64,000 nucleotides of DNA from an uncultured virus (IMG/VR IMGVR_UViG_3300025770_000897) (lineage: Duplodnaviria > Heunggongvirae > Uroviricota > Caudoviricetes): IMG/VR virus record IMGVR_UViG_3300025770_000897; one strand, written 5' to 3'. Below are positions 4,685 to 54,407 of this stretch, piece by piece. Both the position numbers and the translations under genes were made by a program. The notes under the pieces were generated by a model that saw only the letters and a list, made by a program, of their open reading frames with translations, ran no database searches and was not told where the DNA came from. Position 1 is the stretch's first letter. Each line of letters starts with the position of its first letter.

Positions 4685-6021
4685 TGGATGCAAAGACTAT
4701 CACAGGCGCAGGAATGATTATTGGTGGTGGCATTCTCGGCTACCGTTCCATGAAAGAACTATCAGGTTTGGGCTGCTACGGTCCTGCTGGATATTTAACA
4801 CTTGGATTAACTGCTGTTGGCGGAGGACTATTCCTTTTCGGAAAACTTCGTGGAGAAGCCGTTGGAGAAGCCACACAAGAAATGAAAGATGAAATCGCTG
4901 GCGTTATGGGTGCAGAATCTATGGGCAAGTGTTTTTCATGTGGTAAAGATGCAGTTTCCGAAAGTCTTGGTCATTGTCTTGATTGTGGACAACAATATAA
5001 TGCTGAAGTAGAATACATGGGAATCCCAGTTATTGCTAACTCTTTCGGTGATTCATCTGCTTTGGAATCTGGTGACGGAGTTCCACAATGGTATGGCTCC
5101 GCAGAAACTTTTGAAGCCTCCGGCTACGGAGGAACAGGACCCCGCACCGTTATGACAACTGCTGACGGCACTCGCAAATACATTCGTCGTAACAAGAAAG
5201 GACAATTCACACCTTACCAAGTAAATATCGCAGGTAAGAAAGGCTCGGCTTCTATTGACCGACGCATGAATGCCCGAAACTATGCTAAGTCTGGACACAG
5301 GGACCAAGGAGACGCAAATCCAGTCGGTATGATTGACCGTGCTTCCCGTAGCATTGAAAACGCTATTGGTGGTGTTTTCGGTTCAGAAACAATTGAAACT
5401 CAAATGGAACCAGTTATTCCTAACTCTTACGGAGACAACTCTGCTTTGTCCTCCAGCAACGGAGTTCCACAATGGTATGGTAGCGCAGAAACTGAAATGG
5501 GTCTTCCAGTAGTTCCTAACTCCTTTGGAGAAGAATCCACAGTTGTTAGTTCAGGACACGGAGTTCCACAATGGATTGGCTCTGCTGAGTTCGAGGCACA
5601 ACCTCGCACCCGTATGACTACTGCTGGCGGCACTCGTAAGTATGTTCGTCGCAACGACAAGGGACAATTCACTACTTATCAAGTCAATGTTGATGGTAAG
5701 CGTGGAGCAGCCTCCATTGACCGACGTATGAAGGCTAAGAATTATGCCAAGCCCGGATACCGCAACGAAGGAGACGCTAACCCTGTTCGACAATCTGACC
5801 GAAAGAATGCAGAGGCTCGCACTCGCATGACCCTTCAAGACGGCACACGCCGATATGTTCGACGCAACAAGCAAGGACAGTTCACCAATTACCAAGTAAA
5901 TGTTGATGGTAAGAAAGGTGCTATCGCTAACGACCGCCGACAAAAGGCTAAGAACTATGCCAAGCCCGGATTCCGTAATGAAGGCGATGCAAAAGCAACC
6001 CGTCAAAGCGACCGTCGTTAA
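4685..6021 (+). CDS. Membrane-anchored mosaic polyprotein: two N-terminal TM helices, Zn finger, 3 GVPQW repeats, 3 RRNxKGQF basic repeats
   Basis: Repeats visible in protein and DNA; modules separated by GAE/NAE/SAE/GSE. GTG 4675 is an alternative start. Confidence 0.8.
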
Positions 6022-6065
6022 GATTCTACGAAGGTTTAAGTAGCAGAAACCACATAGTTCTCTAC

Positions 6066-6434
6066 ATGGACTTTGATGACAGTTTGAAAAAGGCTGTTGC
6101 GGCTCAACAAGCCAGAGATAAACTTCGTCGTCAAGCGCAAGGCGAAAGAACAGGACTTTCAGATTCCAAGCGTCGTGCCGACCCGACACGTCATCAACGA
6201 ACTCCAGAACCAAAAGTTTCATCGAGAGATATTCAACATCCCACTGGAACTCCAGATTGGATTTCTCAAATACAAAAACAAAACGAAACTTCTGAGGCTC
6301 CTAATTTAATTCCTGAATCAGACCCAATTCGTCGCAACATTCAAGGCAACCAATCTCGATTGCTAAACAATGCTGAAGAAGAATTAGAAAAGATAAGAAA
6401 ACAACTACGCCGTGCTTACGGTTTGGAGGATTGA
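6066..6434 (+). CDS. Hypothetical protein
   Basis: TTTAAGTA at 6035, 31 nt before ATG. Confidence 0.75.
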   Translation: MDFDDSLKKAVAAQQARDKLRRQAQGERTGLSDSKRRADPTRHQRTPEPKVSSRDIQHPTGTPDWISQIQKQNETSEAPNLIPESDPIRRNIQGNQSRLLNNAEEELEKIRKQLRRAYGLED

Positions 6435-6438
6435 GTCA

Positions 6439-6924
6439 ATGTCAATTCGTCGTCAAGGTTTTCAATGGGTCGTGGCCGACCTCGGCAATCTACCACCTAA
6501 AGACATAGAACTTTTAGAAAATCGCCCTCAATCTGTGTTCTATTCTAAAATTGGAACTGCAACCATTACCAATCGTTTAACAACTAAGGGCGATGAGTTT
6601 TTGGTTCTTCAATACATAGGTAGCACACCCGGCATTTACGGTTTGGCTAACAACTGGAAACCCGGTGGTTTCGTGAACATTGTAGTTGAATCCACGGCTT
6701 ACTATCAAACTCTTGATGGTCGAGATGCACAAGGGATGTCTGGCACAGCAGCCCCGTATCCGATTTCATCCACAGCCTCTCCAGTGCTTCAAAATTGGAT
6801 TCCAATTGAAATACCACCCGGAACTAACTGGAACGTCACTTATTTTATTTCTAATGCTTTGGTTGAGCCGATTGAGGCATTCCCCAGCGGCGATGGATTT
6901 TCATGGACTACCACAGGAGCGTGA
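6439..6924 (+). CDS. Capsid-family paralogue (jelly-roll-like) lacking the conserved C-terminal segment
   Basis: MSIRRQGFQW, WKPGGFVNIVVESTAYYQ, GMSGTAAPYP and IEIPPGTNW align with 58289 and 45235; GGAGGA RBS before ATG 6439. Confidence 0.75.
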   Translation: MSIRRQGFQWVVADLGNLPPKDIELLENRPQSVFYSKIGTATITNRLTTKGDEFLVLQYIGSTPGIYGLANNWKPGGFVNIVVESTAYYQTLDGRDAQGMSGTAAPYPISSTASPVLQNWIPIEIPPGTNWNVTYFISNALVEPIEAFPSGDGFSWTTTGA

Positions 6925-6928
6925 AACT

Positions 6929-9781: not shown

Positions 9782-9800
9782 GACGCAGAAAACCTTAATC

Positions 9801-10283: not shown

Positions 10284-10319
10284 GGATGTTTTAAGTAGGT
10301 GCGCCAACCTAACAACAAC

Positions 10320-11519
10320 ATGGCACAGATGCTGTTATTTACAGGAAAAGGTGGCGTAGGCAAATCTACTGTCTCGGCTGCTACGGCTTTGCACCACGCT
10401 CATTCAGGGCTACGAACACTTTTAGTTTCTTCGGACCCAGCCCATAGCACCGATGATACTCTCGGCATCCGAGTCGGATTCGAGCCAACCCCAGTAACAG
10501 GTGTTCCTAACTTGTGGGCTAAAAATCTTAATGCCGAAGAACTCGCCGGCGATTTTTTTGGTCAAATTGAAACTCTCATGGATAAATCTTTCGGAAGCCT
10601 CCCCGGTTTTGATTCGTCTATGTTATCCGAACTTTCTAAGTTTCCGGGCATGGATGAAGCCTTTGCTTTAGAAGAAATTAACCGATTGTGTTCAGGCACA
10701 GATTATGACTTAATCGTTTTCGATACAGCACCCACAGGACACACCTTGAAAGCCCTTTCTGCACCAGATTATCTCAATACATTCCTTCTTAAGATTCTTC
10801 GTATGAAAGCCAAGATTGAAAATCTCAAAGGTTTCTTTATCAAAAAAGGAGATACCTCTAAATTGGTGGCTCTAATGGAAGACTTCATCAAGCGTATTGA
10901 ACGACTCAAAGCGTTGCTGCGTAATCCTGAATACGTTAGCATCAATTTGGTTTCTATTCCAACCGAAGCGGGTTATGCTGAGTGCGCTCGAACTGTCCGA
11001 TTCATGGACAGCATGAATATCCCAGTAAATCACATTATTATCAATCAAATTATCCCAAACTTTGGAGAGGATGTTTGGGCTACTGCGGCGAATAATCCTG
11101 CCGCAGCCTTGCTCCATAACGAATGGTTGATTCAACAGCCATATCTTGAAAAGTTTCGGACACTTTCATCCGAAACATCTATCCGAATCGTAGGAATGAC
11201 TCGATTACCATTTGAACCTCGTGGTTCACGACTCACCGAAGTTGCAGAAACTCTCTGGAATGAAAGGGGACTTCGTTTTGAAACTTTTGAATCATTCAAC
11301 ATTTCTGAATCCGAAGGCAAAGCCGTTATTCGCACAGCGTATATCACTTCCGCTAAATGGAGTCGAAACAATCGAGAGTTTTATTATGGTGGTTCAGATG
11401 CCTCAGTTGGTAATTTTGTTTATGAACTTTCGGATTTACCCGATGTCAAGATTTCACGTCGCAAGCAACTGGGCAACGTAGTTTTGACTTGGAAGCCAGA
11501 GGCGGATTCGGATGATTGA
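10320..11519 (+). CDS. ArsA/Get3 (TRC40)-family ATPase, single domain with C-terminal extension
   Basis: TGKGGVGKST P-loop, SSDPAHS switch I, PGMDEAF, DTAPTGHT switch II; start 30 nt after TATA at 10290. Confidence 0.92.
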   Translation: MAQMLLFTGKGGVGKSTVSAATALHHAHSGLRTLLVSSDPAHSTDDTLGIRVGFEPTPVTGVPNLWAKNLNAEELAGDFFGQIETLMDKSFGSLPGFDSSMLSELSKFPGMDEAFALEEINRLCSGTDYDLIVFDTAPTGHTLKALSAPDYLNTFLLKILRMKAKIENLKGFFIKKGDTSKLVALMEDFIKRIERLKALLRNPEYVSINLVSIPTEAGYAECARTVRFMDSMNIPVNHIIINQIIPNFGEDVWATAANNPAAALLHNEWLIQQPYLEKFRTLSSETSIRIVGMTRLPFEPRGSRLTEVAETLWNERGLRFETFESFNISESEGKAVIRTAYITSAKWSRNNREFYYGGSDASVGNFVYELSDLPDVKISRRKQLGNVVLTWKPEADSDD

Positions 11520-23393: not shown

Positions 23394-23428
23394 GAAGTTT
23401 TAAGTATCGGAAACCCCTAATGTCAATT

Positions 23429-24769
23429 ATGGCAGACGATGATGAGTTCATAGACACTTACATGACCATCGAACCTGCTGGTGATAACGTTCCAGAAGAT
23501 TTTTACAAAATGTTGGGCAAATTAAAAAAGGCCAACGGAATATCCAACGAGTTAATGCTGGTCGATTCAGCAGAGCATTTTGCTCAAACTAACATGGATT
23601 ACATTTCTCTTTCTAACGATTACATGGCTCATGGACTTCCTGAAAATTATCACGGCTTCACTGAAAAACGTATATCCGAGGATTTACTTTTCGTGATTCA
23701 ACACGAAATTGGACATCTCAATATCCATCCCAACCAAAGTTACGGATGGAAAGAGGAAATACAAGGTTTGCCCTTAGAAAGAAGTCGTCGAGGACGTTGG
23801 GCTAATGTCTTTTCAGATGTCATCGTCAATTACACGGCAGGTAATGGAGTTCAATTAGTTCCAAGTCCTGATAAAGCACAAGATACTGAGGCTATGAACA
23901 ATGCTATGTGGTCTTCTTACGCAGGAGGTTATCGAACTTGCTACGATGGTAATGGGATGTTGGAGGGTCAAGTCCAACACAGACTATTATTGGAATCTGG
24001 AAAATTGGTGGATAATCGTTTCAATAATGGTCGTTACACCAATCCAGCCACAGTAGATGGCTACACCCCTTCAGATGACACACCCAGATATGAAAGATGG
24101 CAAGGTCACGGTCGGGGTCCACAGTTATATCCTTCTGTGGCTTGGTGTGTGTCACATAAAATGCCTGTTGGCACAGATATGGGTGCAGGTTTGGGATTGT
24201 CCAAAACACCCCAAGCATTTCCAGACAACTGGAAACAAGTAGAAGTCAAAGCCACCCTTAATATCGAATACTCCCCTAATGCAAACAAGTGGTTGGGCTA
24301 CAATCCAACACCCGGAACTTGTCCCCTAACTGCTGGAGAGACCACAAACGAGGGAAAAATCTCCTCTGGAACTTACACAGTTTTGTCCACTCGAACTTAT
24401 GACAACATCATTGACACCAAAGAACTTCGACCTATTGAGTTCTATCAAATTGATTACGGAGGCACACCTCGTTGGATACCTGCCCATTATTGTATTACAC
24501 TTTGTCCTGCCTGTGGACTTCCAGCACCCACTCAATTTGAGTTAGGTTTCGGTTACAAGCCTTACATGAAAGACATTATAGAATACGACCCTCGCACCAT
24601 GAATCAAGCCGAGAGAAGTAAGTTGTATGCTCAATTACTTCATAATTTACTGGCTGGTCTTTACTCTACTTCTAAAGAAGGTTTCGACGGTAAAACCGGA
24701 GTGGCCGCTGGTGAAGCATGGCTTTATGAAACTGCATGGGATATGCACTTACAACACACAGGAAATTAA
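23429..24769 (+). CDS. Putative HExxH metallopeptidase (DUF2201 N-terminal-like, MoxR/VWA-associated)
   Basis: FVIQHEIGH...WANVFSDVIVN plus a C-terminal CPAC; ATG 30 nt after TATA at 23399. Confidence 0.65.
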   Translation: MADDDEFIDTYMTIEPAGDNVPEDFYKMLGKLKKANGISNELMLVDSAEHFAQTNMDYISLSNDYMAHGLPENYHGFTEKRISEDLLFVIQHEIGHLNIHPNQSYGWKEEIQGLPLERSRRGRWANVFSDVIVNYTAGNGVQLVPSPDKAQDTEAMNNAMWSSYAGGYRTCYDGNGMLEGQVQHRLLLESGKLVDNRFNNGRYTNPATVDGYTPSDDTPRYERWQGHGRGPQLYPSVAWCVSHKMPVGTDMGAGLGLSKTPQAFPDNWKQVEVKATLNIEYSPNANKWLGYNPTPGTCPLTAGETTNEGKISSGTYTVLSTRTYDNIIDTKELRPIEFYQIDYGGTPRWIPAHYCITLCPACGLPAPTQFELGFGYKPYMKDIIEYDPRTMNQAERSKLYAQLLHNLLAGLYSTSKEGFDGKTGVAAGEAWLYETAWDMHLQHTGN

Positions 24770-24782
24770 GTGGTGAACTATT

Positions 24783-28737: not shown

Positions 28738-28774
28738 GCAAGGTTTTAAGTAGTCGTGCAACGAAGTGTTTGAC

Positions 28775-36697: not shown

Positions 36698-37543
36698 ATG
36701 CGTTGGTCTCAATTTGGTCTCGGAGCCGTTTTGGTCGGTGTCGCTGCCTTCTTCGGTAATGAAAAGTTTCGTAGCAAAGTAACTTCAGCCTTCAGTGCTG
36801 ATGGCATAACTCCAGCAAATCTGGAAGAGATGCACATTGAAAGTTCTGGTGTCACAATTGACCAAGTTCCAACTTCTTTAGCACAAGCCTTCCTCGGCTA
36901 TCAACAACTTCACCTACAAGGCACTAATTCTATTGCTAATGATTCACCATTTATGGATGGCCTTATTGATGCACAACCAGTTTATGTTAATCCCCACGAC
37001 CTCGGATATTCATTCCAACCCGCAGAACAAGGATTTTCTTCCGAGTATGTGGATGAAGTCGGACAAACCGCTTCTTCTATGAACACCACCAACAACGAGT
37101 TCATTACAGGACCCGGAATGCCTTACACCCAAACCCCTTCCCAAGACCCAGTTAGTCTCGACCCCAGCACTGGTGCAGGTGTCGGTATTACTTATGATGG
37201 AAGTCGTTTGCCAGTGGCTCGATTGGCTCCCGAAGTCAATAGTGATTTCCCTTATCTTGTTTCTATGGTTGATGCTCCGTTTTTGACTCCACCCACAGGA
37301 GAAGTTGGAGGCAACCGTATTGGAAGCGTATCTCGTAACAGCACAGATGATAACGTCAATGGCCGTCTCGGAGAAGTTGCCCTCAGCCCAGATGTTGATT
37401 CCTCTTATCTTGATACTTCTACTGGTCGCACCCTACCACTAAGTCAATGGCGAAGCACCCACACAATCCTCCGTATTTCTGATACTATGGTATCAGCAAT
37501 TCCTTTTAGCGGAGGCTTTGAAACACAACTAAGGAGAGTATGA
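36698..37543 (+). CDS. N-anchored membrane protein
   Basis: ATG 30 nt after TATA at 36668; TM FGLGAVLVGVAAFFG, then FSAD. Confidence 0.8.
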   Translation: MRWSQFGLGAVLVGVAAFFGNEKFRSKVTSAFSADGITPANLEEMHIESSGVTIDQVPTSLAQAFLGYQQLHLQGTNSIANDSPFMDGLIDAQPVYVNPHDLGYSFQPAEQGFSSEYVDEVGQTASSMNTTNNEFITGPGMPYTQTPSQDPVSLDPSTGAGVGITYDGSRLPVARLAPEVNSDFPYLVSMVDAPFLTPPTGEVGGNRIGSVSRNSTDDNVNGRLGEVALSPDVDSSYLDTSTGRTLPLSQWRSTHTILRISDTMVSAIPFSGGFETQLRRV

Positions 37544-40092
37544 AAATGACTAAAATGCTATTTATTCAATCTGAAGATTACTGGGGATATGATGCTTCCT
37601 CATTCGATGATACCATTAACTTTTACAAGTTTGCTTGGACTGTCCCACTCGCACAATACATGGAGATGAGTGAAGAAGACCAAAAACGTTTGTATCCTTG
37701 TGCGCTCTTTTATGTTGCAGGTGTTACCGACAATCACAATTTCTTGACTCTTAAGATTATTCAAGACAGCACCGAAGCCAAAGTTTCAGGAATGGAAGGC
37801 ACTAAGCGTCGAACACGTCGTTATCAAATCGGTTCAAATGCTCAGTATTCCGTCGGCAGTTATGCACTTCAAGCCGCACCCGCTTCCGCTACTAACATTA
37901 TGGAAATTAAAGAAGCCGTTGAAGCCGGTAGCACTTCTGAAGGAAGTTTCCTTGTTTCAGGATTCCTTGATGATGCTGCAAGCGTGGCTAAACAAGTGAA
38001 CTACGAACCCGCAGAAAAATCTGCTGAATCCGTAGGATTTGCTGCACCAGCCACCGAACCATCAGGCTCGGCTTACGAACCTGCTGACCCCACAGTAGCC
38101 AACCCATCTACCGAAGGACCCTCAGAATCAGAACTCATTACTATGTCTGCTGAAATTGAATACGCAGAATTGGGTGACGAGTCATACCCTATTGTTCCTA
38201 ACACCACAGGGCAAGATTCTTCCTTTAGTGGTCATGGAGTTCCACAATGGTATGGTGCCGAAAGTTCTGGCTCCATCAGAGCATACGCTGACATTGATTA
38301 TTCATGGGACTCAGACCCAGACCCACATAAACATGAAGACCAACTGGATGAAAGTGACATCAGTGGTATGATTGAAGAACTTGTTCAAGAAGAAGTAGAT
38401 TCTGGTAACACTTCTGGAAGCGGTTACACTTCAACTGAAGTAGGTTTTGAGGGTCCCGGTAAAGACGATTACTCTTATGAAGACGTAGATATTCATTATC
38501 GGTGGGGTGCTGAAGGCTTTGGTGCAGAAGGCGAGGGCGATATTAGCCACTCCCGTATAGACGAAGAAGAAGACCAACCAGTTATTCTCCGATACGACAA
38601 TGCAACAACTTTTTACGAATGGAAAATTGTCGGACCTGTAACTTATGACGAAGAATATGAGATTGAAGAGAAAATCGAAGGCGAACTCGGAGACTCACCA
38701 GAACGAGGACAAACCGACTTTGAGTTCACACTCGATGAGGATGGCCGAGAAGTTAATGTAGATACAGATACAGATTATGGCGAAGGTCGTTTTTATGGTC
38801 TGGCTGCTGAAGCCGAGGTATCCATAGAAATTGAAGACGAAGATGGTGGTTATCAATGTGGCAAGTGTTACACTGGCTTTGAAGATAAATCTCAGGCAGA
38901 TAATTGTTGTTCTGCTTGTTATGAGTGTGGTTATTCTGCTCATGTAGGCTTTGAACGAGCGCAAAAGTGCTGTGCTTGTGATTGTGATGAAACTGGTGGC
39001 GGACCTAATGGAACTTGCCAACAAATGTTCTCTGCTGAAGGCGGTCGCCTCCGAGACATCCGTGGTAAGTTTATGAACCGTGGTAAAGCCAAGAATGCAG
39101 TTTTCGGTGAAGTTATGTCTCAACAAATGGGCGGATATTACCGCACAGGCATTGTCGGAGATAACCCACCAGTCGGTCAAGATATTTCTCGACGCAACCC
39201 CGTAGCCAAAGCCAAATACTTTGTGCAACCCGGTGTTCAAAACGACAACACAGGAGCATGGTCTAAAGGACCCAACTTCCAACAAGCCCGCAAGATTGCT
39301 AAAGGAGTAGCATGGGACACCGTTCAAGACATGGGACTCGCTGCTGAAACCTTCGCCAGCGAAACTTTCTGTGCTGATTGTGGCACTACCAAAAAATACC
39401 GTGGCGAACAAGAAGAAGGCGTGGAGTGTGGCGATTGTGGTCGCCCCGCAACCCATTCTGCCCGAGGTGGAACAGTCAATCGTTGTGACCGATGTTGGCC
39501 CGGTGATGGTTCTATGTCTGCTGAAATGGAATACGCTGAACTTGGAGAAGAACTTTACCCAGTTGTTCCTAACTCAGAAGGTGGCAACACCGCTTTGGAT
39601 TCAGGATACGGAGTTCCTCAATGGTATGGCTCGGCTGAAACTTTAAAACCATATTTTGAAAGAGATGATGCACCTGAAGAAGATTATGAGTTTTCTGAAC
39701 GAGGACCACAAATGCTTCGTGCTATTGCGCCCCAAGCAGGATTATATTTTGATTTTAGAGTTGATGAGTGGGAAGACGCTTCATGGGCCAACTTACCAGA
39801 CATGACCGAAGAAGAATATGATGCTTGTTATTTTGATTTCAAGAAAGGTGGTGTCTTTGACAGTTCAGATAATCTAATTGTTTCTATGGATGATTTCGCA
39901 GAGGCAATTTTCAACTACGACATTGTGAACATTGATGGTAACTATAATTGGTCTAAAGGAAACCTTGCCTCTCGTCAAGGCATTACTGATACTTTGGAAG
40001 AAGCCTCACCTACTAAGGGAGTTCTTGTAGCACCTGCTTTGGCTGCTATTGCTGGAATCTTAGGCGGTATTTTCTACGCACGTCGTTCTTAA
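37540..40092 (+). CDS. Tail-anchored mosaic polyprotein: acidic modules, Zn fingers, 2 GVPQWYG repeats, basic RDxxGKF module
   Basis: More than 10 xAE/xSE sites; CGKC/CYEC/CADC/CGDC; C-terminal TM ALAAIAGILGGIFYARRS. Confidence 0.8.
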   Translation: MKMTKMLFIQSEDYWGYDASSFDDTINFYKFAWTVPLAQYMEMSEEDQKRLYPCALFYVAGVTDNHNFLTLKIIQDSTEAKVSGMEGTKRRTRRYQIGSNAQYSVGSYALQAAPASATNIMEIKEAVEAGSTSEGSFLVSGFLDDAASVAKQVNYEPAEKSAESVGFAAPATEPSGSAYEPADPTVANPSTEGPSESELITMSAEIEYAELGDESYPIVPNTTGQDSSFSGHGVPQWYGAESSGSIRAYADIDYSWDSDPDPHKHEDQLDESDISGMIEELVQEEVDSGNTSGSGYTSTEVGFEGPGKDDYSYEDVDIHYRWGAEGFGAEGEGDISHSRIDEEEDQPVILRYDNATTFYEWKIVGPVTYDEEYEIEEKIEGELGDSPERGQTDFEFTLDEDGREVNVDTDTDYGEGRFYGLAAEAEVSIEIEDEDGGYQCGKCYTGFEDKSQADNCCSACYECGYSAHVGFERAQKCCACDCDETGGGPNGTCQQMFSAEGGRLRDIRGKFMNRGKAKNAVFGEVMSQQMGGYYRTGIVGDNPPVGQDISRRNPVAKAKYFVQPGVQNDNTGAWSKGPNFQQARKIAKGVAWDTVQDMGLAAETFASETFCADCGTTKKYRGEQEEGVECGDCGRPATHSARGGTVNRCDRCWPGDGSMSAEMEYAELGEELYPVVPNSEGGNTALDSGYGVPQWYGSAETLKPYFERDDAPEEDYEFSERGPQMLRAIAPQAGLYFDFRVDEWEDASWANLPDMTEEEYDACYFDFKKGGVFDSSDNLIVSMDDFAEAIFNYDIVNIDGNYNWSKGNLASRQGITDTLEEASPTKGVLVAPALAAIAGILGGIFYARRS

Positions 40093-42638: not shown

Positions 42639-42663
42639 GTAGTTGAACGTGAAAGGTGATAAT

Positions 42664-43698
42664 ATGAGTGCAATAGGAAATGTTGTTGAATCCTCTAAGG
42701 CTGGATTGATGTCCCCTGACTTTTATTCTGGTGTTGCAGGTATCGCAGTTGGCGGTGTCCTCGGCTCTGCACTTACTTTGATTCCTTTCCAGCGTGCTGG
42801 AATGTTTGGTAACGCTCTCCGAACTGGTGTTACACTTGGTTCAGGTGCTTACCTTGTGAACAAGTCTCGTTCCGAATCAGGAGATATGAGTCGCTTGTAT
42901 CTTAGTGCAGGAACAATTCTCGGATTTGCAGGTGTTAGTCAAGTTCTTGGTTATCTTACTGCTATGACTGGACTTTCAATCCCCGGTTTCAACGGTCTTG
43001 GAACTATGATTACTGCTAACGCAGAATCTGATGACACACAATTGATTGCACAGCGAGGCTCTGGCTCAGTTATCGGTCAAGAAACCGCTACTCAAAGTTT
43101 CTCCGACATTTACTCGGCTGATACTTTCGAGGAAGGCACACAAGAAATGGTGAACCGTGTTCCTCCGGGCAATCCAGTAGATTCAGTTTATGAACCTGCT
43201 CCAATGGGTCACGGTGTTGCACAGTGGTTCGGTTCTGAAGATATGGACATCGCTCCTACTGGTGGACTCGACCAAAACCTCGGTGGTTCTTCCGCAGAAC
43301 CTACTACCGTTGCTATGCCTCAAGAAGAAAAACTTGGTGACTTTATTAACAGCGTCGATACTCTCGGACTTCGTGCTATGAACCCACTGGGTCGTGCTAA
43401 CGCTTTCGTTGATTCCAAGTATCCCGGTGGCGACCCTCCAGTTGCTTACGGTGCTGAAGAACCAATGCTCAATGTTGAATACCCAAATCCAACTCCTCAA
43501 ATGGGAAGTCTCCCTGATATGTTGAACACATATATTAAGCCCAGCACAACCGCAGAACAATCCATCATGGATTCGGTTCGTCTTATCAACCCGGGGCAAC
43601 CTATTCAATACTTTGGTGCAGAAAACGGCAAGATGGCCGGCACCGTTACACATTCGCTGACATCGGCAGAGGGCTTCGGCTCCGTGATTGGTCAGTAA
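42664..43698 (+). CDS. Multi-TM membrane protein with AE-delimited C-terminal peptides
   Basis: Three N-terminal hydrophobic helices; GHGVAQWFGSE and two GSVIGQ; TATA at 42634. Confidence 0.8.
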   Translation: MSAIGNVVESSKAGLMSPDFYSGVAGIAVGGVLGSALTLIPFQRAGMFGNALRTGVTLGSGAYLVNKSRSESGDMSRLYLSAGTILGFAGVSQVLGYLTAMTGLSIPGFNGLGTMITANAESDDTQLIAQRGSGSVIGQETATQSFSDIYSADTFEEGTQEMVNRVPPGNPVDSVYEPAPMGHGVAQWFGSEDMDIAPTGGLDQNLGGSSAEPTTVAMPQEEKLGDFINSVDTLGLRAMNPLGRANAFVDSKYPGGDPPVAYGAEEPMLNVEYPNPTPQMGSLPDMLNTYIKPSTTAEQSIMDSVRLINPGQPIQYFGAENGKMAGTVTHSLTSAEGFGSVIGQ

Positions 43699-43967: not shown

Positions 43968-43994
43968 AATTAGAACACAACGGAAGTGAATAAT

Positions 43995-44549
43995 ATGAAA
44001 CTACGACAAATACTTGTGAACGAATACACCGTCGGTGGCAGCCTTCTCCTTATAGGTGCAGGTTTCTGGTCCACCCGATTTACTGAGGCTCTGGGATACA
44101 AACTCTTTACCATCCCTTCAATGCTTCCACTTATCGGTGGTATGGACGTTACTGTTGGCCGTGCTGCTGCACTTGTGCCACTTTCGCTGGGTGCTGCATT
44201 CTTGCTCGGTAAGATTCGCCCAGTTACTGCTAAAGTTCCAGTCGTTGATAAGGTCGTGGACCTTGCAGACCGAATCGTGAACGAAGTTTCCAAGCCAGTG
44301 GCCTCTGAAATCAAGAGTGCTGAAAAGGCTGCTGAGGAAATCGAAGTTTCGGAGGCTGAATCCGTGGACCAACTCAACCCCACAGAAGTTACTGGAAATG
44401 ATGAAGAAGTTTCGTTTAAGGCCGAAGGCGGCAAAATGAAGTGGAAGGATGCTATCGCACAAGCCCGCAAGGAACTTGGAATCACAGGATTCACCGCTAT
44501 CAAGAAGGGAACCCCTCTTTACAAGCGTGCTAAAGCACTATCATCTTAA
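43995..44549 (+). CDS. Membrane protein with C-terminal DVNP-like basic module
   Basis: Two TMs, acidic AE-rich linker, then WKDAIAQARKELGITGFTAIKKGTPLYKRAKAL. Confidence 0.75.
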   Translation: MKLRQILVNEYTVGGSLLLIGAGFWSTRFTEALGYKLFTIPSMLPLIGGMDVTVGRAAALVPLSLGAAFLLGKIRPVTAKVPVVDKVVDLADRIVNEVSKPVASEIKSAEKAAEEIEVSEAESVDQLNPTEVTGNDEEVSFKAEGGKMKWKDAIAQARKELGITGFTAIKKGTPLYKRAKALSS

Positions 44550-45918: not shown

Positions 45919-45961
45919 GGTTTCCCCTTTTCAGGAGAAAACTTTAAGATAGGTGATAATT

Positions 45962-50252: not shown

Positions 50253-50297
50253 AACCATAACAAAGGTTTTAAGTATCAGAATGACTCTATGTAGGTC

Positions 50298-50945
50298 ATG
50301 TATGGTCGTCAAGTAACTATTCGGGACCTTTCTCTTTTGATGATGGACCTCGACTCGCAACTTAGTTTCGATGAGGCTTACGACCAAGTGGCAGATTTGT
50401 TAAGGCAACACCCAAACGGTGACACTCCCGAAGTTCGAGCCATGCTGGAGTTTGAAATGGTGGATGCTTTGATGGAATCCGAAGTGCGAGATGACGAAGA
50501 TTTAATCGTAGAAGGTCTTATTCGTGCTACACGTCATGGAATCATAGAACCTGAAGCAATTCCTCCAGAACTGGCCGAAAAAGTAGCCAACCGAATGCAA
50601 TTCCAAGAAGAATACGCTGCTGAAGAGTCTCACCCTAAGAACTACATGGTTCATGCCGACATCGCTCGTATTGTGAACTCAGCCCACCGTTTAGAACGTC
50701 TGCAAAATATGTTTTCTGATTACGATGAATGGTTCAAAAGCCGATTATCCGTAAATGCTGATACTCTCGATAGTTTAGCCGATTATCTGGAAGACCAAGA
50801 AAGTTTCATCATGGAAGAAATCAACGCTCGTGACTCTGCGGAATACCTTCGTCAAGAAATGTCAGCCGAAACTTCTGAACCAATAGGTAACTTCCCTAAG
50901 CCAGCACCCTTCAAAGGGATTAGTTATCGCAGTTTGTTACTTTAA
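50298..50945 (+). CDS. Acidic helical protein with AE-flanked helical module
   Basis: YAAE|ESHPKNYMVHADIARI...WFKSRL...LADYLE...SAE; TATA at 50268. Confidence 0.75.
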   Translation: MYGRQVTIRDLSLLMMDLDSQLSFDEAYDQVADLLRQHPNGDTPEVRAMLEFEMVDALMESEVRDDEDLIVEGLIRATRHGIIEPEAIPPELAEKVANRMQFQEEYAAEESHPKNYMVHADIARIVNSAHRLERLQNMFSDYDEWFKSRLSVNADTLDSLADYLEDQESFIMEEINARDSAEYLRQEMSAETSEPIGNFPKPAPFKGISYRSLLL

Positions 50946-50983
50946 GCAAAGTCTTTAAGTATCAGAAGAACTCAACATTTGTT

Positions 50984-52219
50984 ATGGGTGTCAAGACTCC
51001 TAAGTTTAACGGCCACGATAAGTGTGTTGAATGTGGTAGTATTGAAATACCCTTGAGTGAGATGGATGGAGGAGAAATCGGATTGTCGGACTACTACTTC
51101 TCATGTGCTGAATGTGATTTTTCATGGTATGTAGCAGTAAGGACTGATGAACATGAAGATGGGCCAAGTGCAGGTATTGAGTTTGTAGGATTTATGGATG
51201 AAGACGGGAATATACTCGCAGAAGCCCAAGAGTCTAAGTCCATGACTTCTGATTGTCTTCATTGTTCCGAAACAATTATACCTAATGAACCATATCTCTA
51301 TTGTAATGATTGTGGAGACCAAGCGCACTACGATTGTGGTGACGATAATGGATGGAGACAAATAGATGACGACATATTTTGTGAAGGTTGCTACGAATCA
51401 ATCATGGATGCTGCCTATTATCGAGGAGCCCCAGTCGTCATAGGCTTTGATGTTGATAAATTACAGGCTGAAACTTTCGAGGCTATGGGTTGGCATGACC
51501 CACGTTGGGCAGGAGACCGTGAGTCTGTTGAAGCCAAGTTCAAGGCTATGTATCCAACTTACAACATTGAAGAGGACTCAATAGATTATCTCGTTTATTC
51601 TGGTGGTAACAGCAACAAGTATCATGTATTCTTCCTTGCTACCGACCCTGCTGGCAATTATCACTCTTTCAATGCTTACGGTCGAATCGGTTACGCACCT
51701 ACTCTGCACCACAATGCAGGACCCGGAACAAAAGGTTCAGTTACTCAAGCCATCTCGAAAAAGCGACACGCAAAATCCAAGAAAGGATACGTCCAAATGG
51801 CCGAAGAGAACTTCGGACCAAAAAGATTCCGATTAAAAGTCAAACACAACATGGAAGATGGTTGGGAACACGTCGCAGATTTTGACGATGAAGAAGAAGC
51901 AACAAGTATGTATTATGACTTGTCTGAGGCCCGTCAAAGGAAACTCTCAAGAGTTCCCGAATTGAAATTACTTGAGGTTGATGACGACGGTAATGGTGAT
52001 GTTCTATACATACAAAGAAATGCTGCTGAAGAATCTTTTGCTTATCGAGTTCTTGATTCCTTTATCGGTGAACCAGAAGACTATGAAAAAATAGAATTGG
52101 CTAAACCAATTCGCACAGGCTGGTCTATTGGTGCTGGAATAACACTATTCTCTCTTACAGCAGGTATCTTCACACTTGCTGCTGCTAACCTCTTAGGTAG
52201 AAATAATGGTGATGAATAA
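50984..52219 (+). CDS. Tail-anchored mosaic protein: Zn fingers plus WGR-like domain
   Basis: CVEC/CAEC, CLHC/CNDC/CEGC; NSNKYH...YGRIG...KSKKGY; near-C-terminal TM; TATA at 50954. Confidence 0.8.
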   Translation: MGVKTPKFNGHDKCVECGSIEIPLSEMDGGEIGLSDYYFSCAECDFSWYVAVRTDEHEDGPSAGIEFVGFMDEDGNILAEAQESKSMTSDCLHCSETIIPNEPYLYCNDCGDQAHYDCGDDNGWRQIDDDIFCEGCYESIMDAAYYRGAPVVIGFDVDKLQAETFEAMGWHDPRWAGDRESVEAKFKAMYPTYNIEEDSIDYLVYSGGNSNKYHVFFLATDPAGNYHSFNAYGRIGYAPTLHHNAGPGTKGSVTQAISKKRHAKSKKGYVQMAEENFGPKRFRLKVKHNMEDGWEHVADFDDEEEATSMYYDLSEARQRKLSRVPELKLLEVDDDGNGDVLYIQRNAAEESFAYRVLDSFIGEPEDYEKIELAKPIRTGWSIGAGITLFSLTAGIFTLAAANLLGRNNGDE

Positions 52220-52584
52220 TGAATAACAACGTAAAAATCGGATTTGGAATCTTAACTGCTGTGGCTGTTTGGACACAACGAGACAAACTCAAAGAAGTTT
52301 TGGGTGGCTCTGTTTTCAATGCTCATGTGAACCCTGCGGCTGATGCCCAAGTTGCTCGAAACTTTGGAACTGTGAACTTGGTTTCCACCGAACGTAACAT
52401 CATGGCAGGACAAGCCGTCGGGCAAACTCTCAATTACTCTGGTATGGGTCTTTCTCCTGAACAAGTAGGTGCAACTAATGGCCTCAGCCAAATCTTTGAT
52501 TTGTCGGCTTACGCTGCAACCATGAGAACCACCGAACCAGTGTGGGGTCAGAACTATCCCGGCAGAGCCATTGGACAAGACTAA
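52219..52584 (+). CDS. N-anchored small protein
   Basis: IGFGILTAVAVW; GGTGA RBS and TAATG overlap. Confidence 0.7.
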   Translation: MNNNVKIGFGILTAVAVWTQRDKLKEVLGGSVFNAHVNPAADAQVARNFGTVNLVSTERNIMAGQAVGQTLNYSGMGLSPEQVGATNGLSQIFDLSAYAATMRTTEPVWGQNYPGRAIGQD

Positions 52585-52622
52585 CCGAAGTCTTTAAGTA
52601 GTCGTGCCGAGAAAGAAACCTC

Positions 52623-53183
52623 ATGGTAGATTTTGCAGAACTTCGGAATCGTATTCTCAACGGAGAAGACGAGATTCCAGATGAAGTCAAAGAATCTCCT
52701 GTGACAGAAGAGTTTCTTCGACCAGCCACAGGATTTCCGATAATGTTTGGTGCGTTAAGCGTGGCTTTGGTTGTAGCCGATAAACTAAAATTAGAAATGC
52801 TTAAAACTGATGAGTATAACTATCGCCCCATTGTGCTTTCTGTGTTTGGATTTTTGCCACTTGGTTTTGGCCTCGGAGAACTTATGAGGGGACTTTCGGC
52901 TCAAAAGCAATTTTCTCGTTATGAAACTCTTGTTGAAGCCGCCGAATCTGAAGTAGAAAAACTAACTGAAGATGATGTCGAACAAGGTTCACAAGACAAT
53001 TCTTATTCTTACGAAGCCGAAGCCAACTATCAGGCACAAAACCTTGCTGCACTCGGTATGCAACCACTGACAACTTCAAACCTCGGCACAGACGTAGGTG
53101 TATATTCTGACGGAATCTTCGGTCAAGAATCTCCATCACTTTTCAGACCTCCGAGTTATGAAGCCTCAACCTTTGGATGGTGA
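52623..53183 (+). CDS. Two-TM membrane protein
   Basis: TATA at 52593, 30 nt before ATG. Confidence 0.75.
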   Translation: MVDFAELRNRILNGEDEIPDEVKESPVTEEFLRPATGFPIMFGALSVALVVADKLKLEMLKTDEYNYRPIVLSVFGFLPLGFGLGELMRGLSAQKQFSRYETLVEAAESEVEKLTEDDVEQGSQDNSYSYEAEANYQAQNLAALGMQPLTTSNLGTDVGVYSDGIFGQESPSLFRPPSYEASTFGW

Positions 53184-53189
53184 TTTTAA

Positions 53190-54407
53190 ATGACAGAAAA
53201 GTTTTACTGCGTAGGATGCAAACAACATTATGAACTTGAAGTTCATGCTGCACAACGACAACCCAGCAAAGGTGGAAGTTTCCGTCATTCGCTAATTTCC
53301 GAGTGTCCAAAAGGACATCGTGTCAATAAATTGTGCAAAAAAGAAAGGTATGAATCCCAACGTGCTTCTAAGAAAATGTCTGCTGAACGACGCTTCCCAC
53401 ATCCACCAACAACGAAGGAAAATTGGAAACCCGCTGAAGGAATCCGTCATAACAAATCTCTTCGCCCCGAAACTTTTGAGTCACCTTATGTTGGGTCCAA
53501 AGCCTTAAGCGATATTTCTGTAACAACTGACCAATTAACCGAAACTATTGGCTCAGGAGATTTCGACAAAGCCAGTTTGAACTCATCGGGACATCAAAAC
53601 ATCTTTGCTAACGCTGAAGAAGGCAACGCCCCTGTTCAAGACCCAATGGAGTTTGGAGAAATGGCTAACTGGACACCACTTGATGGCACACCTTCACTCA
53701 AGCGTCGTAAAGATGCCGAAGCAGGAAGTTTCCGTGATGGCACAGGCTGTATTTCTAAAGGTTCCTTCCCCAGTATGACTTGTGAACACTGTGGGTTTGA
53801 CCCACACGAACTCGTGTATTACCAATGTAAGCAGAACGATGAAGATTTAACCCGTGATGAATGGAAAGAACAATTGGAGTTTTACTTCTATGAAGGCTCA
53901 CACGGCGAACAGTGTCAAGGTCTTATTGATGAGAACAAAGAAGCAGAAGGCATGACTGTTGGAGTTAATTTGGAAGCCCTTGAACCAACTCCTGATGAAC
54001 CCGAAACTGGTGAATCAATGGTTCCTGCGGATAGTTTCATGCCCGAAGGTTCAGGACACGTTATTGGTTCTCAAAGCACCTCTCACAATTTCACGCCGTT
54101 CCATTCTGAAGACGAAGATGATTTTTATCAGAATGCCGAAACTTTCATCGCTTACCCAGAACTCAAAAACCATCTGGTTTCGATTATGCCAGACAAAGTG
54201 TATAACATCAATTTAATGGAAGACGGCGATTTTCAAATGAGTGTAGCCAATCGCTACATGGATGAAGTAATTTCTGCTGTCAGTGATTATCAAGCCACCG
54301 AAAAATCAGAGTCTGATTTCGTCTTTGGACAATCCAAAACTACTGTTGCAGTAGCGGCTGCAAGTTTGGCGGTTGTCGGAGCATGGCTTTGGAACAAAAG
54401 GAAGTGA
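53190..54407 (+). CDS. Tail-anchored mosaic protein with N-terminal zinc-ribbon (DUF5679-like) module
   Basis: FYCVGCK...ECPKGH; MSAE/NAE/DAE/EAE/HSE sites; C-terminal VAVAAASLAVVGAWLWNKRK. Confidence 0.8.
   Translation: MTEKFYCVGCKQHYELEVHAAQRQPSKGGSFRHSLISECPKGHRVNKLCKKERYESQRASKKMSAERRFPHPPTTKENWKPAEGIRHNKSLRPETFESPYVGSKALSDISVTTDQLTETIGSGDFDKASLNSSGHQNIFANAEEGNAPVQDPMEFGEMANWTPLDGTPSLKRRKDAEAGSFRDGTGCISKGSFPSMTCEHCGFDPHELVYYQCKQNDEDLTRDEWKEQLEFYFYEGSHGEQCQGLIDENKEAEGMTVGVNLEALEPTPDEPETGESMVPADSFMPEGSGHVIGSQSTSHNFTPFHSEDEDDFYQNAETFIAYPELKNHLVSIMPDKVYNINLMEDGDFQMSVANRYMDEVISAVSDYQATEKSESDFVFGQSKTTVAVAAASLAVVGAWLWNKRK

What the first reader, a model, noticed from the sequence alone, without database searches (positions are those of the whole stretch)
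4685..54407. Membrane-anchored polyproteins punctuated by an x-(A/S)-E motif: candidate protease-matured cargo system
Seen: in 4685, 33136, 37540, 42664, 43995, 50298, 50984 and 53190, unrelated short modules begin and end at [FMYWKN]-x-AE or -SE sites. Examples are MGAE, YNAE, YGSAE, FGSE, KNAE, MSAE, WGAEGFGAE, FSAE, LAAETFASE, FKAE and LQAETFEA. Repeated modules start immediately after such a site. The motif looks scarce in the capsid, ATPase and fibre proteins. Established: T4 gp21 and phiKZ gp175 cleave virion proteins after Glu at (L/I)xE and (S/A/G)xE. Inference: these are tethered polyproteins cut by a Glu-specific maturation protease, releasing small DNA-binding and effector peptides inside the virion.
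Basis: partly seen in the sequence, partly recalled or inferred. Interest (0 to 1): 0.88.

Follow-up and report, generated by a model that had tools for sequence, protein, structure and literature searches.

The report
Modular viral proteins jointed at Ala-Glu
A large, uncharacterised marine virus with archaeal-type genes strings unrelated small protein modules into long genes, and nearly every joint carries the same short hydrophobic-x-Ala-Glu motif, most likely a protease cutting site, though no cutting has been shown.

Summary
In the eight named ORFs AE occurs 49 times against 22.5 expected. The fuller motif [FYWML]-x-A-E is about twofold enriched in the window and in two related 160-166 kb viral contigs. 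It is almost fivefold enriched in 78 distant relatives, while eight control tetrapeptides are not comparably enriched.

Comparative data settle the module claim. Modules are gained, lost and swapped between relatives at AE: 13 of 20 homology breakpoints lie within 3 residues of an AE end, against 2 expected. Of 51 independent insert families, 23 have both ends at AE, against 1 expected. Six of six Pfam domains in such ORFs sit between AE sites.

Cleavage itself is inferred, not shown. No S21/S77/S78/S80, adenain-like or other Pfam peptidase was found. The only protease-like gene is 23420-24769, which has an invariant HExxH and a weak M48/minigluzincin fold match.

The system is not T4- or phiKZ-like. 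The motif register differs, the packaging ATPase is HerA/SH1-type, and the relatives carry TBP, TFIIB and PolD.

Verdict: junction motif confirmed; protease-processed modular precursors are the best reading (about 0.55). It is a new variant of a known kind.

The parts
4675..6021 (+). Modular ORF (448 aa). Modules by residue: 1-81 hydrophobic hairpin ending VMGAE; 82-111 CxxC..CxxC module ending YNAE; 112-144 'PQWYG' module; 145-272 basic module followed by a PQWYG module; 273-305 PQWYG module; 306-380 and 381-448 basic modules (net +10 and +13).
   Evidence: AE ends at residues 81, 111, 144, 272, 305, 380. Two whole-module indels against G001 fall exactly at AE. 380 homologues in marine metagenomes.
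33136..33684 (+). 182-aa ORF with an N-terminal hydrophobic stretch and the sites SEAE, FGSE, EGAE and MGAE.
   Evidence: AE 3 vs 0.8 and SE 4 vs 1.1. The EGAE and MGAE sites are kept in G001 and G002.
37540..40092 (+). 850-aa tail-anchored modular ORF with 15 AE. It holds two PQWYG modules, two Cys-rich modules (11 and 6 Cys), one basic module (501-603, net +8) and acidic modules. C-terminal TM at 827-845.
   Evidence: [FYWML]-x-AE 8 vs 1.4. Modules are swapped against G001 at AE.
42643..43698 (+). 351-aa ORF with an N-terminal TM (31-49) and 6 AE (ANAE, SSAE, YGAE, TTAE, FGAE, TSAE). It has one degenerate PQWYG-like stretch ending WFGSE.
   Evidence: (AE 6 vs 1.6, p 0.008).
43986..44549 (+). 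187-aa ORF with a TM (55-73), then KSAE, KAAE, SEAE and FKAE, then a 40-aa basic C-terminal module (net +8).
50298..50945 (+). 215-aa ORF without a hydrophobic anchor, carrying LAE, YAAE, DSAE and MSAE. Its G002 counterpart is the C-terminal part of a 675-aa multi-module ORF.
   Evidence: [GSA]AE 3 vs 0.4.
50984..52219 (+). 411-aa tail-anchored modular ORF: Cys-rich modules, a WGR-domain module (164-274) lying between LQAE and QMAE, and a C-terminal TM (382-400).
   Evidence: Pfam WGR at 206-272. AE ends at 163 and 274. Modules differ in G001 and G002.
53190..54407 (+). 405-aa modular ORF with a C-terminal hydrophobic tail. Modules end in MSAE, KPAE, ANAE, KDAE, KEAE and QNAE. G001 carries extra modules inserted at these sites.
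55264..55572 (+). 102-aa ORF: zinc-ribbon module, YLEAE, then a TM. The G002 counterpart (483 aa) has four further N-terminal modules, each ending in AE.
85..648 (+). 187-aa basic ORF ending ..IAGAETLQ. In G001 and G002 the same module lies inside 572- and 574-aa multi-module ORFs, followed by GAE.
23420..24769 (+). Candidate zinc metallopeptidase (449 aa). HEIGH at residues 95-99, with H103, E113 and E120 also invariant. The model also has an SH3-like barrel at 271-362. This is the only protease-like gene found, and its link to the AE sites is not shown.
   Evidence: H95, E96 and H99 are invariant in 30 of 30 sequences. AF2 mean pLDDT 83. VIA-align top hits: ZMPSTE24 Z 6.6, Ste24p 5.6, abylysin 5.3, selecase 5.3, BepA 5.3, BlaR1 5.2. 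No Pfam hit at E<=1 apart from a spurious one.
10299..11519 (+). ArsA/Get3-type ATPase, a possible insertion factor for the tail-anchored ORFs. That role is an inference from the family's known function.
   Evidence: Pfam ArsA_ATPase E 1.2e-59.
28766..30034 (+). HerA/FtsK-type ATPase with a C-terminal TM. It marks the region as the morphogenesis module of a probably membrane-containing virus.
   Evidence: Pfam DUF87 E 2e-4. phrog_2666 E 2e-13. Best matches in the phage collection are the SH1 and HHIV-2 ATPases, 26% identity, E 3e-4. TM at 397-415.

Best explanation
These ORFs are modular precursor proteins, that is, polyproteins. Each is a string of small, functionally independent units: basic modules, zinc-ribbon modules, a WGR domain, a 33-aa acidic 'PQWYG' module and others. 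Most strings are tied to a membrane anchor at one end.

Each unit carries a recognition motif at its C-terminal edge. The motif has M, F, Y, W or L at P4, often S, A or D at P3, Ala (rarely Ser) at P2, Glu (rarely Asp) at P1, and often G, T or S followed by Phe after it. An endopeptidase that cuts after this Glu would release the units. Release probably happens during or after delivery to the viral membrane or particle.

Shown: the modules, the motif, and its strict link to module boundaries.

Inferred: that the motif is cut, that the cut follows Glu, where and when it happens, and which enzyme does it. The enzyme could be the virus's own HExxH protein at 23420-24769, an unrecognised viral protease, or a host protease.
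For: 1. Specificity. [FYWML]-x-AE is enriched in four sequence sets (z 3.7, 8.9, 7.5, 23.8). Seven of eight control tetrapeptides stay within z 2.5, and the eighth (AQ) reaches z 3.7 in one set. With the PQWYG module masked, AE is the second most enriched of all dipeptides in 78 distant representatives, 331 vs 190. It is the most enriched dipeptide in G001.

2. The same flanks recur in all sets. P4 shows M 2.0-3.7x, F 1.4-2.7x and Y 1.3-2.6x; P2' shows F 1.8-4.3x.

3. Module boundaries.
- 13 of 20 window-G001 nucleotide homology breakpoints inside four modular genes lie within 3 aa of an AE end. Expected 2.0, P 3.7e-9.
- Among 77 non-redundant homologues, 23 of 51 distinct insert families have both ends within 3 aa of AE. 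Random placement gives a mean of 0.99 and a maximum of 5 in 1000 trials. Control dipeptides give 0-2.

4. Six of six Pfam envelopes in such ORFs (SOD, a ZNF592-like zinc finger, DUF5872, WGR, MarR, DUF2387) contain no AE. Each lies between two AE ends, and the C-terminal AE follows within 2-6 residues for four of them.

5. The constraint is at the protein level. Ala codons vary (GCT 15, GCC 12, GCA 7 of 34 sites). At orthologous joints E is invariant and P2 is A or S across 38 sequences down to 50% identity.

6. The same modules sit in different carrier ORFs in different genomes. Terminal modules do not need the motif: 0 of 67, 2 of 218 and 0 of 198 proteins end in AE. This fits a signal needed only between units.

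7. Precedent. Phage head proteases of T4, phiKZ, 201phi2-1 and SPN3US all cut C-terminal to Glu at short motifs; SPN3US cuts at A-X-E (passages read in PMC5694885 and PMC10052503).

8. A conserved HExxH protein whose fold is nearest to M48/minigluzincin peptidases lies in the same gene block.
Against: - No cleavage product has been seen. There is no proteomic or N-terminal data of any kind.
- No protease of a class known to cut after Glu was found. I saw no Pfam peptidase family in 64 window, 120 G001 and 93 G002 ORFs, and no conserved GDSG-type motif.
- Zinc metallopeptidases usually read the primed side, whereas this motif is mostly on the unprimed side (my recollection).
- The fold match of 23420 is weak: Z 5-6.6, below the tool's own caution line of 8, and Foldseek found nothing at E<0.3.
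- The motif is not avoided elsewhere. The other 59 window ORFs have AE 81 vs 75. PolD DP2 has 10 vs 7.2-7.8, and RNR 9 vs 4.0 and 4 vs 3.9.
- Not all joints fit. 28 of 51 insert families lack AE within 3 aa at one or both ends. With exact placement only 32 of 178 distinct indel segments have AE at both ends.
- Over all orthologue pairs the excess at indel ends is modest: 12 of 66 vs 3.5, 6 of 110 vs 4.5, and 18 of 256 vs 11.1.
- Single sites decay. RPE in the window stands for FDAE in G001. Four sites in the G002 orthologue of ORF 31333 are mostly absent from the window.
- The AF2 model of ORF 4675 has mean pLDDT 36. It therefore cannot show that sites lie between folded domains.
- The strongly conserved PQWYG module could be a binding peptide rather than a released product.
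Confidence: 0.55

Rival explanations
1. These are uncleaved beads-on-a-string tether or scaffold proteins. The ORFs act at full length, anchored in the viral membrane, with basic modules holding DNA and PQWYG modules holding another partner. The hydrophobic-x-Ala-Glu motif is a docking or capping element of the linkers: it is bound, not cut.
For: - The PQWYG module is highly conserved (G, V, P, W, G, E invariant in 13 of 13 copies).
- It is predicted disordered (pLDDT 25-29), as short binding motifs are.
- It has a P-[VI]-[VI]-P core.
- It occurs up to 6 times per protein at full module length (one weak hit shows 11 short stretches), in only 84 of 1.84e9 cluster representatives, which suits a lineage-specific interaction.
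- No Glu-specific protease was found.
- Stand-alone copies of the basic module were not found. All 3 short hits look like fragments.
Against: - A linker has no need of one specific four-residue motif at the C-terminal edge of every kind of module. These include enzyme domains such as SOD and GNAT-like units in soluble ORFs.
- Modules move freely between carriers, and their order changes between close relatives. That is hard to reconcile with a defined full-length architecture.
- Terminal modules lack the motif.
Confidence: 0.25
2. The motif is a by-product of how modules are shuffled at the DNA level. Recombination happens at short shared junction sequences, which therefore travel with each module and have no role in the protein.
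For: Indel and swap breakpoints between close relatives fall on the motif at the nucleotide level. The junction often extends to AE-T-F-E-A, which would give 12-18 nt of possible microhomology.
Against: - Ala codons at the sites vary with genome-wide usage (GCT 15, GCC 12, GCA 7).
- Flanking residues vary.
- Orthologous joints keep E, and A or S, through divergence to 50% identity while the neighbouring linker residues change. That shows selection on the protein.
- Six nucleotides are too few for homologous recombination (general knowledge).
Confidence: 0.07
3. Another reaction takes place at the motif, not simple endoproteolysis. Examples are transpeptidation or sorting by a sortase-like enzyme, or cleavage before rather than after the Glu, as for the SSV1 capsid protein whose mature N-terminus is a Glu.
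For: SSV1 VP1 is processed at a conserved Glu by an unknown protease, and the mature protein starts with that Glu (passages read in PMC5748691). Sequence comparison alone leaves the cut position uncertain by up to 2 residues.
Against: - The G002 WGR-module ORF starts M-T-D-F-E-A-M where the window has ..LQAE-T-F-E-A-M.
- One G001 ORF stops right after ..SGAE.
- Both observations place the unit boundary after Glu.
- No sortase- or archaeosortase-like Pfam hit was found.
Confidence: 0.08
4. The pattern is chance or composition: Ala and Glu are both common helix formers, so AE is frequent anyway.
For: AE is only 1.3-fold enriched over the whole window. ORF 14497 has many AE in what look like helical stretches.
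Against: - The shuffles keep each protein's composition.
- Control tetrapeptides with the same hydrophobic P4 are flat.
- The boundary association has P 3.7e-9 and 23 vs 0.99.
Confidence: 0.02

Closest known systems
Head-protein processing by Glu-specific prohead proteases of T4 (gp21) and giant phages (phiKZ gp175, SPN3US gp245; MEROPS S77/S80)
   Same: Both have a short motif ending in Glu, repeated within substrates. Both concern internal or packaged proteins. Multiple sites per substrate are described for the phages (passages of PMC5694885 and PMC10052503).
   Different: - Register: the phage motifs put A, S, G or L/I at P3 with a free P2. Here Ala is at P2 and the hydrophobic residue at P4. 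[GSA]-x-E is not enriched (288 vs 311).
- In the phages mostly N-terminal propeptides are removed. Here up to about 20 unrelated units per ORF are delimited.
- No assemblin-fold protease, HK97 capsid protein or portal was detected.
- The relatives carry archaeal-type replication and transcription genes.
Polyproteins of large eukaryotic dsDNA viruses with inner membranes or cores (ASFV pp220/pp62 cut at GG-X; adenovirus precursors cut at (M/I/L)-X-G-G|X; vaccinia AG|X).
   Same: - Structural or core proteins are made as precursors.
- A short junction motif has a small residue at P2.
- In adenovirus there is a hydrophobic residue at P4.
- Basic DNA-condensing peptides are released inside the particle.
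   Different: - P1 here is Glu, not Gly.
- No clan-CE cysteine protease hit was found (Pfam scans).
- The modules here are far more numerous, smaller, and rapidly exchanged between genomes.
3C-like protease polyproteins of RNA viruses (hydrophobic P4, small P2, Gln or Glu at P1). Recalled from memory.
   Same: The site architecture is the same: hydrophobic-x-small-(Glu/Gln)|small. One motif separates functionally unrelated units.
   Different: This is a dsDNA virus of about 160 kb with many separate genes. No chymotrypsin-like protease was detected by Pfam, and the GDSG-type matches found are not conserved between G001 and G002.
M48 / M56 / minigluzincin zinc metallopeptidases (Ste24, BepA, BlaR1, abylysin, selecase), compared with ORF 23420-24769 only
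   Same: Invariant HExxH. The N-terminal 7-175 of the model aligns to these folds, which make up 8 of the 17 best VIA-align rows.
   Different: - Z is only 4.9-6.6.
- There is no Pfam or PDB sequence match.
- The protein has no TM segments.
- It has an extra SH3-like barrel.
- These families are not known to be specific for Glu (recalled).
SSV1 VP1 processing at a conserved Glu (archaeal fusellovirus)
   Same: An archaeal virus structural protein is cut at a conserved Glu by an unidentified protease (PMC5748691 passages).
   Different: It is a single site, and the cut is before the Glu. There are no modules and no repeated motif.

Membership tests
T4 gp21 / phiKZ gp175-type prohead-protease maturation system | An assemblin-fold serine protease gene (Pfam Peptidase_S77/S78/S80/S21 types) in the genome | tested here: inconclusive
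   No peptidase family appeared in Pfam scans of 64 window ORFs (E<=0.01), 117+3 G001 ORFs and 92+1 G002 ORFs. PHROGs gave none either. These tests work on sequence only, and a diverged fold could be missed. ORFs under 90-100 aa were not scanned, nor were one G001 ORF and 3 G002 ORFs that cross locus boundaries.
T4 gp21 / phiKZ gp175-type prohead-protease maturation system | Cleavage motif with the key residue at P3: (L/I)-x-E or (S/A/G)-x-E | tested here: not met
   [GSA]-x-E is 288 vs 311 expected (z -1.6). The enriched pattern has Ala at P2 and M, F, Y, W or L at P4.
T4 gp21 / phiKZ gp175-type prohead-protease maturation system | Tailed-phage head module (HK97-fold capsid protein, portal, terminase) | tested here: not met
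   There are no such Pfam or PHROG hits. The only packaging-type enzyme is a HerA/FtsK-type ATPase nearest to those of the tailless archaeal viruses SH1 and HHIV-2.
Viral polyprotein processed by a dedicated protease (functional class) | Several functionally unrelated units in one reading frame | tested here: met
   WGR, zinc-ribbon and basic modules occur in window ORFs. One G001 ORF holds SOD, a ZNF592-like zinc finger and DUF5872; another holds a MarR HTH.
Viral polyprotein processed by a dedicated protease (functional class) | One conserved short motif at the unit junctions | tested here: met
   23 of 51 insert families, 13 of 20 breakpoints and 6 of 6 Pfam envelopes are bracketed by AE.
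Viral polyprotein processed by a dedicated protease (functional class) | A protease with matching specificity | tested here: inconclusive
   The only candidate is the HExxH protein at 23420-24769. Its specificity is unknown.
Viral polyprotein processed by a dedicated protease (functional class) | Mature products with termini at the junctions | not testable with these tools
   This needs proteomics or N-terminal sequencing.
M48 / minigluzincin zinc metallopeptidases (for ORF 23420-24769) | HExxH zinc-binding motif conserved | tested here: met
   H95, E96 and H99 are invariant in 30 of 30 aligned sequences.
M48 / minigluzincin zinc metallopeptidases (for ORF 23420-24769) | Gluzincin catalytic-domain fold | tested here: inconclusive
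   VIA-align Z 6.6 (ZMPSTE24, rmsd 4.8, 157 aligned), 5.6, 5.3, 5.3, 5.3, 5.2, 5.0 and 4.9 for eight M48, M56 or minigluzincin chains. All are under the tool's caution line of 8. The best Foldseek E-value is 0.3.
M48 / minigluzincin zinc metallopeptidases (for ORF 23420-24769) | Sequence-profile membership | tested here: not met
   No peptidase Pfam family at E<=1. No PDB sequence relative. The only other pointer is a feature-based Atlas lead to DUF2201_N at score 0.76, below the tool's trust level.

The most novel reading that the evidence does not exclude
A widespread, undescribed lineage of ~160-kb marine viruses has archaeal-type PolD, TBP and TFIIB genes and probably an inner membrane. 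It expresses much of its particle-associated and accessory proteome as cassette polyproteins. Dozens of small units are freely shuffled between carrier genes and genomes, because each unit brings its own hydrophobic-x-Ala-Glu cutting signal. These units include basic DNA-binding modules, zinc ribbons, WGR, SOD and GNAT-like enzymes.

In this reading the cutting enzyme belongs to no known viral maturation protease family. It would be the M48/minigluzincin-like HExxH protein, working with the neighbouring MoxR-type AAA+ and VWA proteins. It would dock through its SH3-like barrel on the PxxP core of the PQWYG spacer module.
Probability: 0.12. Interest if true: 0.92.

Novelty: new variant of a known kind. 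Interest (0 to 1): 0.78.

Why it matters
If the joints are cut, this would be the first polyprotein strategy I know of in a virus of archaea or bacteria that lacks a tailed-phage head. I found no such report in four literature searches. Precursor processing of inner-core proteins, known from adenovirus, ASFV and giant phages, would then extend to a new and apparently abundant marine lineage. ORF 4675 alone has 380 homologues, on contigs up to 169 kb.

The motif gives a simple rule for predicting mature products from sequence. It explains why these genes vary so much in length between close relatives. It also defines a sharp experiment: look for peptide termini at ..AE|. The unknown protease would be a new specificity class worth finding.

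Tried and rejected
- No whole genome is held for the window (error). I used two IMG/VR relatives instead.
- The search of earlier findings returned nothing, by place, by sequence or by words.
- Alignment A1 was built from ORFs that I had cut at locus ends. I discarded it and replaced it with A2.
- Complex prediction of the HExxH protein with a PQWYG module plus 6 downstream residues gave no verdict (score 0.02). It says nothing either way.
- Foldseek against the PDB for the 23420 model found nothing at E<0.3. A PDB sequence search found only spurious LRR matches.
- AF2 of ORF 4675 with a 38-sequence alignment gave mean pLDDT 36, too low to place sites relative to folds.
- The Atlas search with a basic module gave no usable hit.
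- A PDB sequence search with the capsid-like paralogue family gave 0 hits. A tblastn of 45235 against phage records gave no match.
- A GDSG/GxSG motif scan for a chymotrypsin-like protease gave two leads. One is absent from G002 and the other's motif is not conserved.
- A 2A-like NPGP signal occurs 0 times in all three genomes.
- A search for stand-alone short forms of the basic module gave 3 hits, all looking like fragments.
- An exact-placement test of indels was too strict for alignments of repeated modules: 32 both ends, 43 one end, 103 neither, of 178. I replaced it with a 3-residue tolerance and a randomisation.
- Literature searches for this virus group or for archaeal-virus polyproteins gave nothing specific (listings and abstracts only).

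Full report
What the window is.

All sizeable ORFs lie on the + strand, and G+C is 42-47%. Only 11 of the 64 ORFs scanned have a Pfam hit at or above the curated cut-off or otherwise convincing:
- ArsA/Get3-type ATPase (10299-11519, E 1e-59).
- An AAA lid in a 1279-aa protein (19554).
- A weak VWA hit (27574).
- A HerA/DUF87-type ATPase with a C-terminal TM (28766).
- SAP, GT2, AAA, WGR and TSP3 repeats.

PHROGs add almost nothing.

The window is collinear with an IMG/VR contig of 166 kb (G001) at 81-96% nucleotide identity, over 18 segments longer than 300 bp that span window 1938-63998. It is more distantly related to a second contig of 160 kb (G002). Both contigs are classed as having inverted terminal repeats. 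64 of 67 window ORFs have a counterpart in G001 and 60 of 67 in G002, in the same order.

Outside the collinear part the relatives encode TBP, TFIIB, both PolD subunits, MCM-like, PCNA, primase, an Hjc-like resolvase, RNR, ligase and several C5 methylases. The packaging-type ATPase is nearest to those of the tailless, membrane-containing archaeal viruses SH1 and HHIV-2, at 26% identity and E 3e-4. I therefore read the window as the morphogenesis region of a large, undescribed virus of archaea, probably with a lipid membrane. That reading is an inference from gene content.

The observation.

Shuffles that keep each protein's composition give, over 67 ORFs:
- AE 130 vs 97 (z 3.6).
- [GSA]AE 46 vs 23 (z 5.0).
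- AE[TSG][FLM] 18 vs 3.2 (z 8.1).

The excess sits in the named ORFs, 49 vs 22.5 (P 8.5e-7). The other 59 ORFs have 81 vs 75.

An unbiased look at all 400 dipeptides puts AE first in G001, third in G002 and fourth in the window. Around AE the same preferences recur in all three genomes: M, F or Y at P4; T or S at P1'; F or Y at P2'.

The four-residue pattern [FYWML]-x-AE is 34 vs 18, 111 vs 50 and 102 vs 50 in the three genomes. The same pattern with GE, TE, AD, AQ, AK, VE or EA is flat there, and with SE only mildly raised.

Modules and their boundaries.

Cutting the translations after each AE makes the architecture obvious. ORF 4675 reads, in order:
- a hydrophobic hairpin;
- a CxxC..CxxC unit;
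- a 33-aa acidic unit ending GVPQWYGSAE (the 'PQWYG' module);
- a basic unit;
- two more PQWYG units;
- two basic units with net charge +10 and +13.

The G001 orthologue lacks exactly the zinc-ribbon unit and has one extra unit (QGYNDRDDES..MMAE) between two PQWYG units. Both changes are bounded by AE.

At the nucleotide level, 13 of the 20 ends of collinear BLAST segments inside genes 4675, 37540, 50984 and 53190 fall within 3 residues of an AE end. Expectation is 2.0, P 3.7e-9. Two more fall on a window RPE that is FDAE in G001.

ORF 4675 has 380 homologues in marine metagenomes. Among 77 non-redundant ones of the 120 listed, I found 209 clean indels of 10 or more residues, which reduce to 51 distinct insert families. 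Of these, 23 have both ends within 3 residues of AE, against 0.99 on random placement (maximum 5 in 1000). Nine control dipeptides give 0-2.

Results that are weaker must be told too:
- With exact placement only 32 of 178 distinct segments have AE at both ends.
- Over all orthologue pairs of whole genomes the excess at indel ends is small: 12 of 66 vs 3.5, 6 of 110 vs 4.5, and 18 of 256 vs 11.1.
- Several exceptions carry SE, GE or AD in place of AE.

Independent support.

A profile of the PQWYG module finds only 84 cluster representatives among 1.84 billion proteins, of very different lengths and with up to six full-length copies. In 78 of them, with the module itself masked, AE is 331 vs 190, second among all dipeptides. 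P4 is M, F, Y, W or L at 2.2-3.7 times background, and P2' is F at 4.3 times. [FYWML]-x-AE is 187 vs 40.

Six of six Pfam envelopes found in such ORFs hold no AE and lie between two AE ends: SOD, a zinc finger, DUF5872, WGR, MarR and DUF2387. For four of them the next AE follows the envelope within 2-6 residues.

The constraint acts on the protein. Ala codons at the sites vary. In a 38-sequence alignment the junction Glu is invariant and P2 is Ala or Ser, while the neighbouring residues drift.

Proteins do not generally end in AE: 0 of 67, 2 of 218 and 0 of 198. The motif is therefore needed between units, not at the end of every unit.

The pattern is not confined to anchored proteins. G001 and G002 have soluble ORFs of 460-920 aa of the same build near their replication genes.

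Mechanism.

A specific short motif at the C-terminal edge of otherwise unrelated and freely exchangeable units is what a processing site looks like. Head proteases of T4, phiKZ, 201phi2-1 and SPN3US do cut after Glu at short motifs (passages read). I therefore favour cleavage after the Glu. It would release basic units (DNA-binding by charge only), zinc ribbons, PQWYG peptides and other units from membrane-tethered precursors.

Two observations put the boundary after Glu. The G002 WGR-module ORF starts M-T-D-F-E-A-M where the window has AE-T-F-E-A-M, and one G001 ORF stops after ..SGAE.

Nothing here shows that cleavage occurs.

The protease question is open. No Pfam peptidase turned up in the window, G001 or G002, and no conserved serine-protease motif.

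The one protease-like gene is 23420-24769:
- HEIGH is invariant in 30 of 30 sequences.
- The model is confident (pLDDT 83).
- Its N-terminal domain aligns best, though weakly (Z 4.9-6.6), to M48, M56 and minigluzincin metallopeptidases, and it is followed by an SH3-like barrel.
- Foldseek and sequence searches are silent.
- It lies between a MoxR-type AAA+ protein and a VWA protein.

Whether it cuts at AE is unknown.

Post hoc, the proteins of this morphogenesis block are poor in AE in all three genomes (45 vs 72, P 4e-4), whereas replication enzymes are not. That would fit a protease acting at the assembly site, but the grouping was chosen after seeing the data.

Comparison and verdict.

The system works like the maturation of packaged proteins in T4 and phiKZ-type phages, and like the core polyproteins of adenovirus and ASFV (the latter two recalled from memory). 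It is not a member of the phage system. The motif register differs, the protease family was not found, and the virion module is of another kind.

I rate the junction motif as confirmed. Proteolytic processing is the best explanation at about 0.55, and an uncleaved tether with a docking motif is the main rival at about 0.25. The finding is a new variant of a known kind.

Noticed in passing
G001 (L012-L020) and G002 (L021-L028), outside the part collinear with the window: The relatives encode TBP, TFIIB, PolD DP1 and DP2, MCM-like, PCNA, primase small subunit, an Hjc-like resolvase, class II RNR, ATP ligase, PolX (G002), UvdE, Fpg and 3-4 tandem C5 DNA methylases. The genomes are ~160-166 kb, linear, and have inverted terminal repeats. 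This is an archaeal-type information-processing set in a large virus that I could not match to any described group.
   Followed up: partly
window 10299-11519, together with 28766, 30894, 37540, 40885, 50984, 53190: A virus-encoded ArsA/Get3-type ATPase (Pfam E 1e-59) sits in a gene block with many tail-anchored ORFs (C-terminal TM). The virus may bring its own factor for inserting tail-anchored proteins into membranes.
   Followed up: no
window 19554-28737: Four conserved genes lie in a row: a 1279-aa MoxR-type AAA+ protein, the HExxH protein, a 932-aa protein full of CxxC pairs, and a VWA protein. This looks like a split and enlarged MoxR/VWA/metallopeptidase system inside a virion gene module.
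   Followed up: partly
window 6412-6924, 45235-45918, 45953-46591, 57591-58289, 58286-59020 (and the C-terminus of 6686-9781): A family of five small paralogues shares a TxYYQ/PYP core. Four of them, and the C-terminus of the 1031-aa ORF, also share a ..DGPDAL..LLE.G....N..WYKR.. tail. There is no Pfam, PHROG, PDB-sequence or phage-record match. They may be capsid proteins, but that is a guess.
   Followed up: partly
window 1974-3686: A secreted-looking protein has bacterial TSP3 repeats at both ends and about 190 residues of GQ/QGQ repeats in the middle. In G001 the homologous region is split over two reading frames.
   Followed up: no
whole window, G001, G002: The dipeptide NP is strongly enriched over composition in G001 and G002 (z about 6.8-6.9) and less so in the window (z 3.2). 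The 2A-like NPGP does not occur. Unexplained.
   Followed up: no
window 913-1563, 1568-1891, 44562-45158: Three ORFs have no counterpart in G001 or G002. The first two are very acidic. They are probably strain-specific insertions.
   Followed up: no
window 5008-5106, 5392-5490, 5491-5589, 38170-38262, 39541-39639: The 33-aa PQWYG module is predicted disordered and has a P-[VI]-[VI]-P (PxxP-like) core. It is confined to 84 cluster representatives among 1.84 billion proteins. The SH3-like barrel in the HExxH protein suggests a docking pair, but the one complex job gave no verdict.
   Followed up: partly
G001 151891-154662 (- strand; L019:11891-14662): A Cu/Zn superoxide dismutase domain is embedded in a 923-aa multi-module ORF between ..SLRAE and ..IGLAE. 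The same ORF holds zinc fingers, a GNAT-like stretch (judged by eye) and DUF5872.
   Followed up: partly
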